From Escherichia coli (GTDB lineage: Bacteria > Pseudomonadota > Gammaproteobacteria > Enterobacterales > Enterobacteriaceae): 64,000 bases of DNA. The stretch lies in the NCBI GenBank assembly GCA_031701365.1, contig GCA_031701365.1_4118.1. One strand, 5' to 3'. The notes under the pieces were generated by a model, which searched no databases, was not told the origin of the DNA, and worked only from the letters and a program-made list of their open reading frames with translations. The translations under genes were made by a program, and so were the position numbers. The stretch's first letter is position 1; each line of letters starts with the position of its first letter. Shown here in pieces: positions 41,365 through 42,787 of the stretch.

Positions 41365-41607
41365 ATGAAAGTACTGACAGAATTAGAAATGTATCATAGA
41401 TTTAATAAGTACTATCATTTACTTAAACCTATACAGAGGATTAAGTGTCCCTTTGTAGTGAAACAGGTATTAATTTATGAGCATAAGTTATTTGTATCAT
41501 TAGGTACGAATGAACAAGAGTATTATTTGAAGTTGTACTTGATTACATTAATAGATTTAATTCACTATAAAACCAAACAAGCTAATAAAGAGAAATATGA
41601 AAACTAA
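41365..41607 (+). CDS. small protein, paralog family B
   Basis: start placed at MKVLTELEMY; LGTNEQEYY. Confidence 0.6.
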   Translation: MKVLTELEMYHRFNKYYHLLKPIQRIKCPFVVKQVLIYEHKLFVSLGTNEQEYYLKLYLITLIDLIHYKTKQANKEKYEN

Positions 41608-41941
41608 TATACAACTCAAGGTATATAAATCATTTGAACATACATATATCAAAAGTAGTCTATGTAGAGATGTAATGGATTACAAGGGTAAGCCATTCAC
41701 AATTACCTATGATTCTTATGTTAGTGATTTATATATATCATTTGTTAATTACGAAAATAAAATATACAAGCACGTTGATATTAAAGATTTAAGTACTTTA
41801 TCACCAGAGGAATACTTTCAGGAATCATTAGTATGGGATTTAGAGTTCCCTATGCCATTAGTACATAAGATGATAGTACTAATGAAAGAATCTAAACAGG
41901 AGCCTAATAGTGGTTATGAAGAACACATTATTGAGTATTAA
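41597..41941 (+). CDS. protein of paralog family C (outlying copy)
   Basis: 114 aa; core motif SPEEYFQESLVWDLE. Confidence 0.6.
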   Translation: MKTNIQLKVYKSFEHTYIKSSLCRDVMDYKGKPFTITYDSYVSDLYISFVNYENKIYKHVDIKDLSTLSPEEYFQESLVWDLEFPMPLVHKMIVLMKESKQEPNSGYEEHIIEY

Positions 41942-41973
41942 GAGTTCTGATAGTACTGAGAGTACAAATGTTC

Positions 41974-42002
41974 TTGACAGTACTTTTCATTACTGATATA
42001 GT
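41974..42002 (+). promoter_or_regulatory. sigma70-like internal promoter
   Basis: TTGACA-17-TATAGT, preceded by GATAGTACTG. Confidence 0.45.
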
Positions 42003-42031
42003 GCACCAACGTTAATCATAGGGTACAGATT

Positions 42032-42277
42032 ATGTTAAAATTTTTAAATTTCCTTATCGTCTTGTGTATTGTTCTTGGAATTGCACCGTTTGTATTAGCG
42101 TATCTGGATTCAGATGAAATGCAGAAGATGAATTGCACAAAGACAGGACAGAGTAGAGAAGAGACGGTTATGATGCCTGTAACGGTTATTGTGAATAACA
42201 TACCAATTACGAACATGATTCCTACCCTAACGACAACGTACCAGTACTCTTGTACAGATGGAGAGAGGTGGAGATGA
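42032..42277 (+). CDS. putative small membrane protein
   Basis: 81 aa; hydrophobic N-terminus MLKFLNFLIVLCIVLGIAPFVLAYL. Confidence 0.55.
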   Translation: MLKFLNFLIVLCIVLGIAPFVLAYLDSDEMQKMNCTKTGQSREETVMMPVTVIVNNIPITNMIPTLTTTYQYSCTDGERWR

Positions 42278-42594
42278 AATTTAATATAGCAAAAACATCT
42301 AATATATGTATATTTGGTTATGCCGAAGAGTTGGGTGATATTGACATTCTTTTGTACAAAAAGGATGGTGTTATGCATTTCAAGTACCAGGATGAAGAGG
42401 CAGACAATTATCCTTTACCTAATTTAGTACAAATGCAGGAAGAGGAATTATTCCAGTACAGCTTAGTATATGACATTGATATTTGCACGATGCCAGTACT
42501 AATTAATATTCAAAAAGTGATGCTCGATGTGTTTGATAGGCTAATACAAGGCACACAAGGAAGAACCATATATGTCAATGTACAAGACAATTAA
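42274..42594 (+). CDS. protein of paralog family C
   Basis: start placed at MKFNIAKTS; core QEEELFQYSLVYDID. Confidence 0.6.
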   Translation: MKFNIAKTSNICIFGYAEELGDIDILLYKKDGVMHFKYQDEEADNYPLPNLVQMQEEELFQYSLVYDIDICTMPVLINIQKVMLDVFDRLIQGTQGRTIYVNVQDN

Positions 42595-42787
42595 TCAAGA
42601 ATGGAAGACCCAAAAGTACAGGGAATTCAGTACTAGTTTAACAAAAGATGCATTGAATTTAAAAAGAACAGAGTTTGATATGTTTATTTTTCTTGGAACA
42701 CGTTCCCAGGAACAATACATTCATTATTATATAAGTTCATTGCGAACGGAGATCGTATGCAAAACACAGGGTATTATAAAAAAGTAA
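42572..42787 (+). CDS. small protein, paralog family B
   Basis: 71 aa; LGTRSQEQY. Confidence 0.6.
   Translation: MSMYKTINQEWKTQKYREFSTSLTKDALNLKRTEFDMFIFLGTRSQEQYIHYYISSLRTEIVCKTQGIIKK

What the first reader, a model, noticed from the sequence alone, without database searches (positions are those of the whole stretch)
41597..42787. Families B and C are interleaved, pointing to recombination between the arrays
Family C copies (41597-41941, 42274-42594) sit inside the end of the family B array, and two family B genes (55066-55284, 55262-55453) are embedded deep in the family C array. A family C-like protein with the core altered to EEELFMYSTV (13218-13889) lies inside the family A array 30 kb away. 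The families therefore move as cassettes between arrays.
Basis: seen in the sequence. Interest (0 to 1): 0.55.

Follow-up and report, generated by a model that had tools for sequence, protein, structure and literature searches.

The report
Interleaved orphan gene arrays, jumbo coliphage
In a 121Q-like giant E. coli phage, two unrelated families of small orphan genes really are intermixed where their tandem arrays meet, but the mixing is old, conserved across the genus and reshaped by ordinary duplication, deletion and unequal recombination inside one early-gene block, not by cassettes hopping between arrays.

Summary
The window is an Asteriusvirus (121Q-like) jumbo coliphage. Profiles built without the test genes place 41597-41941 and 42274-42594 in family C (E about 5e-9). 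They place 42572-42787, 42757-43023, 55066-55284 and 55262-55453 in family B (E 6e-12 to 2e-5). PHROG profiles agree. ORF 13218-13889 shares only the core motif and about 60 flanking residues with family C (E 2e-3 to 2.5e-4).

Every embedded copy has one positional orthologue in 33-36 related genomes, including lineages where that orthologue is only 34-44% identical. A distant metagenomic relative alternates B and C genes even more. No nucleotide similarity links the embedded copies or their flanks to any other site. So the mixing is ancient, not recent cassette traffic.

Recombination does reshape the zone. Two slots beside the embedded C genes hold zero, one or two extra B or C genes in different genomes. 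One 1,239-bp indel ends in the homologous 5' ends of two C genes. One C gene has had its central segment replaced, with a breakpoint at the motif.

B starts 68 bp after the 20-kb terminal repeat. Both families are orphans, and C has no known fold. An early host-takeover or anti-defence role is inferred, not shown.

The parts
36164..41607 (+). Main family B array: 24 tandem genes of about 52-96 aa with the LGTxxQE...Y[IL]..L signature, plus one unassigned ORF (38264-38527).
   Evidence: phmmer cluster; alignment A1; phrog_4148; AlphaFold2 four-helix model with pLDDT 96.7; the first gene lies 68 nt after the terminal-repeat boundary.
41597..41941 (+). Embedded family C gene 1 (114 aa, short form, PEEYFQESLV).
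   Evidence: Leave-out family C HMM E=4.9e-9; phrog_13866 at 2.2e-7; orthologue 80% identical in A4 and 97% in UB at the same position.
41938..41972 (+). Slot 1: a 35-nt remnant. 27 related genomes carry a further family C gene here (C', 365 nt), and phage A4 carries a family B gene.
   Evidence: Breakpoints from blastn against UB and A4; sequences; distribution of C'.
41974..42002 (+). Sigma-70-like promoter match (TTGACA-17-TATAGT with TG) in the only intergenic gap of the zone.
   Evidence: Consensus scan, 11 of 12 positions. The sequence is conserved in UB and A4. Promoter-like matches are not enriched overall, so function is inferred.
42032..42277 (+). Unrelated 81-aa ORF with a hydrophobic N-terminus, lying between the two embedded C genes.
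   Evidence: phrog_8826 at 7e-31; annotated as gene 343 in 121Q; 95% identical in A4 although the next gene is only 34% identical.
42274..42594 (+). Embedded family C gene 2 (106 aa, EEELFQYSLV). Its ATG, in an ATGA overlap with the preceding ORF, is slot 2. Ten genomes have an extra C gene (C'') there, and UB and EC.P1 have C'' plus a B-domain fusion gene (1,239 nt).
   Evidence: Leave-out HMM E=4.6e-9; phrog_13866 at 4.7e-41; orthologues in 36 records; junction sequences sharing AAATTTAAT; distribution.
42572..43023 (+). Two family B genes (42572-42787 and 42757-43023) that follow the embedded C genes.
   Evidence: Leave-out family B HMM E=6.1e-12 and 8.1e-6. Each groups with its A4 positional orthologue (bootstrap 91 and 100), and together they form an in-situ duplicate pair (bootstrap 58).
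42995..43733 (+). Three unassigned small ORFs (42995-43384, 43372-43533, 43533-43733) between the mixed zone and the main C array.
   Evidence: No family hit; orthologues present in UB and A4.
43742..63838 (+). Main family C array: about 35 tandem genes of 100-224 aa sharing the [ED]E.[YLFM]FQ.S[TL][VI] core, with a few unassigned ORFs.
55066..55453 (+). Family B pair (55066-55284 and 55262-55453) embedded 11 kb into the C array.
   Evidence: Leave-out HMM E=2.1e-5 and 8e-12; phrog_4148; 55262 has orthologues in 33 records; the syntenic pair in A4 is 44% and 39% identical, after the 54552 orthologue; JNE01 keeps only the 55262 orthologue at this site.
59997..60255 (+). Replaced central segment inside family C gene 59935-60438. 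It is about 60% identical to phage UB, between flanks that are more than 98% identical.
   Evidence: N-part 50% against motif plus C-part 98% amino-acid identity. In the nucleotide alignment the right breakpoint falls at the start of the SEESYFQNS-coding stretch.
13218..13889 (+). 223-aa ORF inside the family A array, with a family C-like C-terminal region (EEELFMYSTV).
   Evidence: Core HMM E=2.5e-4; 164-member HMM E=0.002; hhalign 22 columns at probability 50%; 58-aa match to a distant C gene; one orthologue in each of 36 records, its own phrog_29152.
15904..36096 (+). Equivalent of the 20,152-bp direct terminal repeat that separates the family A array from the family B array.
   Evidence: The exact repeat at both ends of the CRJP21 record maps to these window coordinates. 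A 20,993-bp repeat was shown by PhageTerm and restriction digests for fEgEco12 (PMC13070987).

Best explanation
Families B and C are two unrelated, lineage-specific expansions of small orphan proteins. They share one co-directional, tightly packed gene block that begins 68 bp after the left direct terminal repeat of an Asteriusvirus jumbo phage.

The block evolves by birth and death. Neighbouring genes duplicate in tandem. Copies are lost or gained by unequal or illegitimate recombination at short stretches shared by paralogues, namely gene 5' ends and the conserved motif-coding segment. Divergent alleles are also exchanged between co-infecting relatives.

The B/C intermixing is an old product of these processes. 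A small mixed sub-array (C, C', membrane-like ORF, C'', C, B, B) at the B/C border and a B pair inside the C array already existed in the common ancestor of the genus. They have been kept in place since, while individual members come and go. The window's genome is a reduced state that has lost C' and C''.

What is shown: family membership, age, synteny, indel junctions and mosaicism. What is inferred: both families are non-virion, early-expressed host-takeover or anti-defence proteins whose diversification is driven by conflict with the host.
For: Membership.

One block.
- Nearly all genes in 36164-63838 are on the + strand and overlap or abut.
- Few promoter-like gaps exist.
- The block starts 68 nt after the terminal-repeat boundary.

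Tandem duplication. Nucleotide similarity exists only between adjacent paralogues: 36320/36723, 36875/37087, 38856/39071, 38932/39379, 50268/50633/51001 and 51185-53427. UB carries extra adjacent B copies that are 50-78% identical.

Age and synteny.
- There is one orthologue per genome in 33-36 records.
- The family order in A4, JNE01 and UB keeps the mixed border zone and the B genes inside C.
- Positional orthologues group together, with bootstrap values of 91, 100, 57-80 and 34.
- A distant contig reads C BBB C BB C - C B CCCC.

Recombination.
- Slot 1 has three states. C' is present in 27 records, a B gene in A4, and nothing in the window or 121Q.
- Slot 2 has three states. The 1,239-bp difference is bounded by the homologous starts of two C genes.
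- The B-domain fusion gene has a RaK2-like C-terminal domain.
- Adjacent genes are 95% and 34% identical to their A4 orthologues.
- The central segment of gene 59935-60438 has been replaced.

Function (inferred).
- No Pfam domain is found in any of 64 members.
- Family C has no PDB neighbour, and family B gives only generic helical matches.
- Sequence homologues came only from Asteriusvirus-type sources, many on contigs of Asteriusvirus size.
- The C fold recurs as multiple copies in RaK2, GAP32, BF and fHe-Yen9 phages.
- No gp42x-50x entry appears in the phAPEC6 virion proteome, and a B member there is gp470c.
- In the related phage CBB, the block of short unknown genes next to the terminal repeat carries RpoD-like promoters and was proposed to be the early host-takeover region (PMC5259590).
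Against: - No expression, interaction or phenotype data exist for either family, so the functional half is inference by position and analogy.
- Paralogues are only about 25% (B) and 12-16% (C) identical on average. Deep gene trees are therefore unresolved, and ancient translocations cannot be told apart from differential duplication and loss.
- JNE01 has 55066-like B genes at two other sites (7254 and 11649; bootstrap 80 for one). A distant relative has a C array with no detectable B genes. So some relocation of B genes is not excluded.
- Only one indel has clearly paralogous endpoints, and only one of 32 C orthologue pairs compared with UB shows a breakpoint at the motif.
- The numbering argument for the phAPEC6 proteome rests on one identified B gene (gp470c).
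Confidence: 0.7

Rival explanations
1. B and C genes are mobile cassettes that move between separate arrays, including into the A array across the terminal repeat, through recombination at shared junction sequences.
For: - Different family members occupy the same slot in different genomes: a C gene, a B gene or nothing at 41938-41972.
- A B-domain gene lies between two C genes in only two genomes.
- 55066-like B genes sit at other positions in JNE01.
- Indel borders coincide with gene borders.
Against: - No shared junction sequence or nucleotide similarity involves any embedded copy.
- All four embedded B genes and both embedded C genes are single-copy positional orthologues across the genus.
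- No recombinase, integrase or homing-endonuclease domain was found among the array proteins scanned.
- The 13218 ORF shares only a motif-sized region with family C.
Confidence: 0.15
2. The interleaving is functional. B and C proteins act together, for example a small helical partner or adaptor with a larger effector, and selection keeps B genes next to particular C genes.
For: - B and C are co-located and intermixed in every lineage that has B, including a distant metagenomic relative.
- The embedded B pair and its flanking genes have stayed syntenic while diverging to about 40% identity.
- A B domain can serve as the N-terminal module of a larger protein.
Against: - The numbers are very unequal and there is no regular pairing. 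About 24 B genes lie in a row without any C gene, and about 35 C genes carry only 2 B genes among them.
- One relative has a C array with no detectable B gene.
Confidence: 0.1
3. The apparent interleaving is an artefact, arising either from chance motif matches in AT-rich ORFs or from misassembly of repetitive arrays.
For: The families were first defined by eye from short motifs. The genome is AT-rich with many small ORFs.
Against: - Leave-out profile E-values reach 1e-9 to 1e-12, while the best of 2,920 shuffled ORFs reaches only 1e-3.
- Independent PHROG profiles agree.
- Paralogues are far too divergent at the nucleotide level to confuse an assembler.
- The same gene order is found in 36 independently sequenced genomes.
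Confidence: 0.01

Closest known systems
Lineage-specific expansions of small proteins in jumbo phages (for example about 35 copies of a zinc ribbon in Bacillus phage G; Iyer et al. 2021, PMC7824862)
   Same: Dozens of tandem, same-strand paralogues of a small domain, confined to one jumbo-phage lineage, with unknown function and presumed conflict-related roles.
   Different: Here two unrelated families, plus family A and an RCC1-like array, are expanded side by side and intermixed. Neither family has a recognisable domain. They are not mentioned in that survey or in the Asteriusvirus genome papers I searched.
Early host-takeover region of short unknown genes next to the long terminal repeat in Rak2-like phage CBB (PMC5259590), and the pre-early region of phage T5 (own knowledge)
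   Same: The block sits next to or inside a terminal repeat of about 20 kb, consists of many small unknown genes, has sigma-70-like promoters and uses the same strand.
   Different: Expression timing has not been measured for Asteriusvirus. The B and C blocks lie outside the repeat and look polycistronic. The genes inside the repeat each have their own promoter.
Multigene families at the genome ends of large eukaryotic DNA viruses (African swine fever virus MGFs, poxvirus ankyrin and K3L 'genomic accordions'; own knowledge)
   Same: Terminal tandem paralogue arrays with copy-number differences between strains, shaped by unequal recombination and linked to host-range or immune evasion.
   Different: There are no recent near-identical amplifications here. 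Paralogues are about 25% identical or less, and nucleotide similarity is limited to some neighbours at 68-87%. This is therefore an old birth-and-death family, not an active accordion. The host and virus realm also differ.
Hyperplastic regions of T4-like phages, including the variable internal-protein loci (own knowledge)
   Same: Blocks of small, fast-evolving, strain-variable early genes between conserved modules, remodelled by recombination at short conserved sequences.
   Different: T4 hyperplastic regions mostly hold unrelated ORFans rather than dozens of paralogues. B and C proteins were not detected in the virion proteome of a close relative.
PHROG families phrog_4148 (B) and phrog_13866, phrog_9317, phrog_12674 and others (C)
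   Same: The window genes are members. The families already exist as unnamed clusters of unknown function.
   Different: PHROGs splits family C into several clusters. It records nothing about array organisation, interleaving or fold.

Membership tests
Family B (phrog_4148-type four-helix protein) | Significant match to a family profile built without the tested gene. | tested here: met
   42572-42787 E=6.1e-12, 42757-43023 E=8.1e-6, 55066-55284 E=2.1e-5, 55262-55453 E=8e-12. The external profile phrog_4148 matches all four.
Family B (phrog_4148-type four-helix protein) | Signature L-G-T-x-x-Q-E ... Y-[IL]-x-x-L in the last two helices, and a length of about 60-90 aa. | tested here: met
   In alignment A1, Q53 and L64 are invariant and T50 is present in at least 90% of sequences. 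The embedded genes read LGTRSQE, LGTSEQE, VGSNKQD and LGTQYQE. The model has four helices and pLDDT 96.7.
Family C (EExxFQxS[TL]V proteins) | Significant match to a family profile built without the tested gene. | tested here: met
   41597-41941 E=4.9e-9 and 42250-42594 E=4.6e-9. phrog_13866 matches both.
Family C (EExxFQxS[TL]V proteins) | Core motif preceded by a beta region and followed by a helix. | tested here: met
   In alignment A2, F is invariant and Q is present in at least 90% of sequences. The motifs read PEEYFQESLV and EEELFQYSLV. The model of the long form 52572-53057 has a helix, seven strands, the motif helix and C-terminal helices, with pLDDT 90. No separate model of an embedded short form was made.
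Family C membership of ORF 13218-13889 | Full-length profile match. | tested here: not met
   E=5.3 against the window family C profile. hhalign aligns only 22 columns. The ORF has its own PHROG, phrog_29152.
Family C membership of ORF 13218-13889 | Core motif and adjacent strand beyond chance. | tested here: inconclusive
   The core profile gives 13.8 bits, E=2.5e-4, with 0 of 2,000 shuffles reaching it. The 164-member profile gives E=0.002. A distant C gene gives a 58-aa match at E=1.2e-5. The motif residues are invariant in 14 orthologues. This is suggestive of a distant C-like domain but is not proof.
Mobile gene cassettes (integron-, shufflon- or homing-endonuclease-type movement) | Conserved junction or recombination sites flanking each cassette. 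| tested here: not met
   Self-blastn with word size 9 and E<1e-3 finds nothing at the embedded copies or their flanks. Overlaps between neighbouring genes vary from 4 to 62 nt with no common sequence.
Mobile gene cassettes (integron-, shufflon- or homing-endonuclease-type movement) | Associated recombinase, integrase or homing endonuclease. | tested here: inconclusive
   No Pfam domain was found in 64 array members or in 10 further ORFs of the zone. Not every ORF of the window, nor the rest of the genome, was scanned.
Birth-and-death tandem multigene family (unequal crossing-over) | Same-strand tandem paralogues in which similarity is greatest between neighbours. | tested here: met
   All nucleotide-level matches inside the arrays are between adjacent or near-adjacent genes.
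Birth-and-death tandem multigene family (unequal crossing-over) | Copy-number differences between close relatives, with indel endpoints in paralogous sequence. | tested here: met
   UB has extra B copies and two extra C genes. The 1,239-bp indel is bounded by the homologous 5' ends of C'' and C. The states are distributed over 36 records.
Genomic accordion (recent adaptive amplification) | Near-identical tandem copies. | tested here: not met
   Mean column identity is 25% for B and 12-16% for C. The best neighbour similarity at the nucleotide level is 68-87% over 50-460 nt.

The most novel reading that the evidence does not exclude
The B/C block would be a dedicated diversity-generating early-gene system with built-in recombination joints. 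The conserved motif-coding stretch of family C is often encoded as ...TTTCAGTACAGTAC[AT]GT..., and so carries the genome's hugely over-represented AGTAC motif. That stretch and the conserved gene 5' ends would serve as in-frame crossover points that shuffle variable central segments and whole genes. The conserved mixed zone at 40.4-42.6 kb lies exactly between two patches in which the AGTAC motif is strictly polar and of opposite orientation. It would be an organising centre for this process, for example an origin or an entry point for a recombination or translocation machine.
Probability: 0.08. Interest if true: 0.75.

Novelty: new member of a known kind. Interest (0 to 1): 0.33.

Why it matters
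Jumbo phages are mostly genetic dark matter. About 28 kb of this genome, roughly 8%, is spent on two orphan families, and about 65 genes of them fall within the window. If these are early host-takeover or anti-defence proteins, the arrays are a large reservoir of new inhibitors. They also offer a tractable case of how phage multigene families diversify.

The present result sets the evolutionary frame for that work. The block is old and syntenic, evolves by birth and death, has hot slots at the B/C border, and starts right after the terminal repeat. Family C has a confidently predicted fold with no solved relative, shared across Rak2-like phages, which makes it a reasonable target for structural and functional study.

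The interleaving by itself is an ordinary consequence of array evolution.

Tried and rejected
- **Shared junction sequences.** I ran a sensitive self-blastn of the window. Nothing involved the embedded copies.
- **Segmental duplication.** I tested whether the B pair at 42.5 kb and the pair at 55 kb, together with their flanking C genes, are copies of one segment. Mutual phmmer hits are weak and not collinear. A joint clade has a bootstrap value of 2. I rejected this as unsupported.
- **B and C as distant relatives or halves of one protein.** hhalign gives a probability of 0.1%. The C-terminal part of the UB B-fusion protein is not C-like. Rejected.
- **The motif as a protease site.** E-x-x-Y-F-Q-[G/S] resembles TEV and 3C protease sites. 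I considered it and set it aside. The residue after Q is variable (Q, N, G, Y, E, L, M, K). The motif is modelled as a confident short helix packed in the domain. No protease link was found.
- **B and C as packaged internal proteins.** The conserved B N-terminus MKxLTxxEY recalls the T4 capsid-targeting sequence. No gp42x-50x entry appears in the phAPEC6 virion proteome, and the N-terminus is part of the confident fold. Judged unlikely.
- **Literature.** Searches for a description of these arrays or of the AGTACT excess found nothing.
- **Technical.** The first Biopython neighbour-joining run timed out and was redone with my own code.
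Full report
**Identity of the window.**
Window 40000-46000 is 96.1% identical to Escherichia phage 121Q. It matches 36 Asteriusvirus records from E. coli and Salmonella jumbo phages of 310-386 kb. ORF lists show this layout:
- a minus-strand array of RCC1-like genes of about 380 aa (1-11661);
- family A (11765-15619, about 60-aa genes) with a 223-aa ORF inside it (13218-13889);
- about 50 individually spaced small genes (16-36 kb);
- family B (36164-43023);
- family C (from 43.7 kb to the window end).

All-against-all phmmer clustering at E<1e-3 puts 41597-41941 and 42250-42594 into the 31-member C cluster. It puts 42572-42787, 42757-43023, 55066-55284 and 55262-55453 into the 28-member B cluster.

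I then built profiles only from the uninterrupted parts of each array and used them to score the left-out genes.
- The two embedded C genes reach E=4.9e-9 and 4.6e-9.
- The four peripheral B genes reach 6.1e-12, 8.1e-6, 2.1e-5 and 8e-12.
- Twenty shuffles of every ORF give nothing better than 1.3e-3.

Independent PHROG profiles agree. phrog_4148 matches all four B genes and phrog_13866 matches both C genes. The two family profiles are unrelated to each other (hhalign probability 0.1%).

**The third element, 13218-13889, is weaker.**
- The full-length C profile does not see it (E=5.3).
- A 44-column core profile gives 13.8 bits (E=2.5e-4), and no self-shuffle exceeds 7.2 bits.
- A profile of 164 C proteins from five relatives gives E=0.002, with a clear gap to the next ORF outside the C array.
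- A profile of its orthologues aligns to family C over 22 columns only (P=1.6e-4, probability 50%).
- A genuine short-form C gene from a distant contig aligns to it over 58 residues, including the strand before the motif (E=1.2e-5).
- The motif residues are invariant in 14 orthologues.

I read it as a probable distant C-like C-terminal domain on an otherwise unrelated protein. I do not count it as a family member.

A sensitive self-blastn of the window finds no similarity that involves the embedded genes or their flanks. Inside the arrays, every nucleotide match joins adjacent or nearly adjacent paralogues: 36320/36723, 36875/37087, 38856/39071, 38932/39379, 50268/50633/51001 and 51185-53427. 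That is the footprint of local tandem duplication. It also shows that any transfer between distant positions is too old to have left a trace.

**Comparison across genomes shows the interleaving is ancient.**
The embedded C gene 42274-42594 has exactly one counterpart in each of 36 records, at 98% down to 34% identity. The embedded B gene 55262-55453 has one in each of 33 records. ORF 13218 has one in each of 36. I classified the ORFs of four relatives with the family profiles. The family order in each reads as follows ('-' marks an ORF assigned to neither family).

| Genome | Family order |
|---|---|
| window | B...B C - C B B - - - CCC ... C - BB C ... |
| A4 | B(x20) C B - C C B B - - - CC ... 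BB ... |
| UB | B...B C C - C B C B B - - - CCC ... BB ... |
| JNE01 | B...B - B C B CCCC - - - - B - C... - B CCC |

In A4 the syntenic counterparts of the 55-kb pair are only 44% and 39% identical, and they follow the orthologue of 54552-55088. In a bootstrapped neighbour-joining tree of 72 B proteins, each peripheral window gene groups first with its positional orthologue (bootstrap 91, 100, 57-80 and 34). Genes 42572 and 42757 form an in-situ duplicate pair (bootstrap 58).

A metagenomic contig with essentially no nucleotide similarity to the window carries both families in the order C BBB C BB C - C B CCCC.... Another contig has a C array, short forms first and then long forms, directly after the orthologues of the last terminal-repeat genes, with no detectable B gene. 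Mixing of B and C is therefore a long-standing property of the block, not a recent event in this genome.

**Recombination nevertheless remodels the border zone.**
- **Slot 1.** Against UB, the window lacks 365 nt between 41937 and 41973. That stretch encodes a third C gene (C'), and a 35-nt remnant is left. C' is present at 95-100% identity in 27 of the 36 records, including CRJP21, a close relative of the window's genome. It is absent from 121Q and the window. In A4 the same slot holds a B gene that is not orthologous to any window gene.
- **Slot 2.** At the ATGA overlap between the membrane-like ORF 42032-42277 and the C gene (42274/42275), UB has 1,239 extra nucleotides. They encode a fourth C gene (C'') and a 269-aa protein. 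The endpoints lie in the homologous starts of C'' (ATGCGTAAATTTAAT) and C (ATGAAATTTAAT). This is what unequal crossing-over between two paralogues would leave. C'' alone occurs in 10 records, including A4. C'' plus the 269-aa gene occurs only in UB and EC.P1.
- **A chimeric gene.** The 269-aa protein is a fusion of an N-terminal B domain (E=2.5e-13) with a C-terminal domain. The only relatives of that domain are in RaK2/K64-1-type Klebsiella phages, at 40% identity.
- **Mosaic divergence.** Between the window and A4, adjacent genes are 80%, 95%, 34%, 44% and 76% identical.
- **Segment replacement.** C gene 59935-60438 is near-identical to its UB allele over the first 60 nt and from 60256 onwards. 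It is only about 60% identical, with indels, in between. The right breakpoint is the start of the SEESYFQNS-coding stretch.
- **Possible crossover points.** The only nucleotide similarity found between non-adjacent C genes is this motif-coding stretch, which makes it a plausible crossover point.

So 'recombination' is right as a process. 'Families move as cassettes between arrays' is not what the embedded copies of this window show.

**Genomic setting.**
The CRJP21 record carries an exact 20,152-bp direct terminal repeat. Its ends map to window 15904 and 36096. For fEgEco12, a 20,993-bp repeat was confirmed by PhageTerm and restriction digests (PMC13070987).
- The 16-36 kb part of the window is therefore the terminal repeat.
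- Family A ends about 285 nt before the repeat.
- Family B begins 68 nt after it, behind a TTGACT-16-TATTAT match.
- Genes inside the repeat each have a strongly conserved promoter-like element, AAAAAGTACTTGCAA-17-TATAAT, followed by a hairpin.
- The B and C genes overlap or abut. Promoter-like gaps are rare: 36136, 41974 between the embedded C genes, and 45965 after a terminator-like hairpin.

**What the proteins are.**
- None of 64 B and C members has a Pfam domain.
- Family C gives a confident model (pLDDT 90, pTM 0.85). It consists of an N-terminal helix, a seven-stranded sheet, a short helix formed by the EE..FQ motif, and C-terminal helices.
- Foldseek against viral models finds the family C fold in several proteins each of RaK2, GAP32, Serratia phage BF and Yersinia phages fHe-Yen9-03/04.
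- The word-indexed searches returned sequence homologues only from Asteriusvirus-type sources, many of them on contigs of Asteriusvirus size.
- An exhaustive profile search gives 158 cluster representatives for family C. Two that I traced lie in similar arrays.
- The phAPEC6 virion proteome lists no gene numbered gp42x-50x, and a B member of that phage is gp470c.
- For the related phage CBB, the block of short unknown genes beside the terminal repeat was proposed to be the early host-takeover region (PMC5259590).

From position, packing, absence from virions, lineage restriction and fast turnover, I infer early intracellular host-takeover or anti-defence proteins. This part is inference only.

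**Comparison with known systems.**
The closest parallels are lineage-specific expansions in jumbo phages (PMC7824862). Others, from my own knowledge, are the early regions next to terminal repeats in T5 and CBB, the hyperplastic regions of T4-like phages, and the terminal multigene families of large eukaryotic DNA viruses. The present case meets the criteria of a birth-and-death tandem family: neighbour similarity, copy-number polymorphism and a paralogue-bounded indel. It fails those of an active 'accordion', because there are no near-identical copies. It also fails those of a cassette system, because there are no junction sites and no recombinase was found. I rate it a new member of a known kind, with modest interest.

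**An unrelated and unexplained feature turned up at the indel junctions.**
- The palindrome AGTACT occurs 253 times in the window, against 19 +/- 4 expected. It is by far the most extreme palindromic hexamer, at 11.7 times the composition expectation. The same excess is seen in all relatives examined.
- Two patches contain none at all, and both carry a strictly one-stranded variant instead. In 35966-40400 there are 9 [CGT]GTACT and 0 AGTAC. In 42635-50205 there are 41 AGTAC[ACG], of which 39 are AGTACA, and 0 GTACT.
- The sites fall in all three reading frames. The same pattern is present in A4, UB and JNE01.
- The interleaved border zone (40401-42634) is the palindrome-rich island between these two patches of opposite polarity.

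I could not explain this.

Noticed in passing
whole window; patches 35966-40400, 40401-42634, 42635-50205: AGTACT occurs 253 times against about 19 expected and is often extended to CAGTACTG. Two conserved patches have no palindrome at all and carry a strictly one-stranded variant instead. The first two-thirds of the B array has 9 [CGT]GTACT and 0 AGTAC. The first part of the C array has 41 AGTAC[ACG], mostly AGTACA, and 0 GTACT. The sites fall in all three reading frames. The same pattern is found in A4, UB and JNE01 and is hinted at in distant contigs. The mixed B/C zone lies between the two patches of opposite polarity. I found no literature and have no explanation.
   Followed up: partly
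15904-36096: This stretch corresponds exactly to the 20,152-bp direct terminal repeat of the CRJP21 record, so the window comes from a collapsed or circularised assembly. It holds about 50 small genes. Most are preceded by a conserved element, AAAAAGTACTTGCAA-17 nt-TATAAT, then a GC-rich hairpin, a Shine-Dalgarno sequence and ATG. This looks like a strong early promoter with a 5'-UTR stem-loop repeated dozens of times.
   Followed up: partly
1-11661 (minus strand): This is a tandem array of ten or so paralogues of 360-430 aa that begin MLPFGRM.KYGNI. They have weak RCC1-like repeat matches (PF25390 at 1.3e-15, below the Pfam cut-off). In the phAPEC6 virion proteome, gp003-gp010, proteins of about 40 kDa annotated as 'DNA condensation protein', are present and may be this family. 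That identity was not checked.
   Followed up: no
11765-15619: Family A is about 17 tandem genes of 59-81 aa ending in ...L[IL][YF]R[YF]. They form two phmmer sub-clusters and have no Pfam match. The array ends about 285 nt before the terminal repeat.
   Followed up: no
L006 (phage UB) 19935-20744: This 269-aa chimeric gene occurs only in UB and EC.P1. It has an N-terminal family B domain fused to a C-terminal domain of about 170 aa. The only relatives of that domain, at 40% identity, are in RaK2/K64-1-type Klebsiella jumbo phages. That suggests exchange between genera into the border slot.
   Followed up: partly
36791-37215 compared with L006 13165-13589: The two adjacent paralogues 36791-37003 and 37000-37215 have their best matches in the opposite order in phage UB (93% and 86%). 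This suggests an order swap or gene conversion between neighbours.
   Followed up: no
18413-18652/20423-20692; 18703-19005/31040-31444; 24063-24386/30626-30949; 23729-23971/26937-27188: These are dispersed paralogue pairs among the small genes inside the terminal repeat. One pair (18325-18654 / 20366-20694) is 76% identical at the nucleotide level over 330 nt.
   Followed up: no
L008 (contig SRR32034556_6130) 3373-11842: In this distant relative the C array (seven short forms, then ten long forms) follows directly after orthologues of the last terminal-repeat genes. No family B gene is detectable. B may therefore be a later addition or may have been lost there.
   Followed up: partly
46317-46332, 57200-57228, 58564-58592 and other motif sites: The family C core F-Q-Y-S-T-V is often encoded as TTTCAGTACAGTAC[AT]GTA, so it is built from overlapping AGTAC units. 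These motif-coding stretches are the only nucleotide similarity between non-adjacent C genes.
   Followed up: partly
32032-32673: The Turkey5 record annotates the orthologous 194-aa gene in the terminal repeat as a serine/threonine protein kinase. Pfam gave no hit for the window ORF at E<0.01.
   Followed up: no
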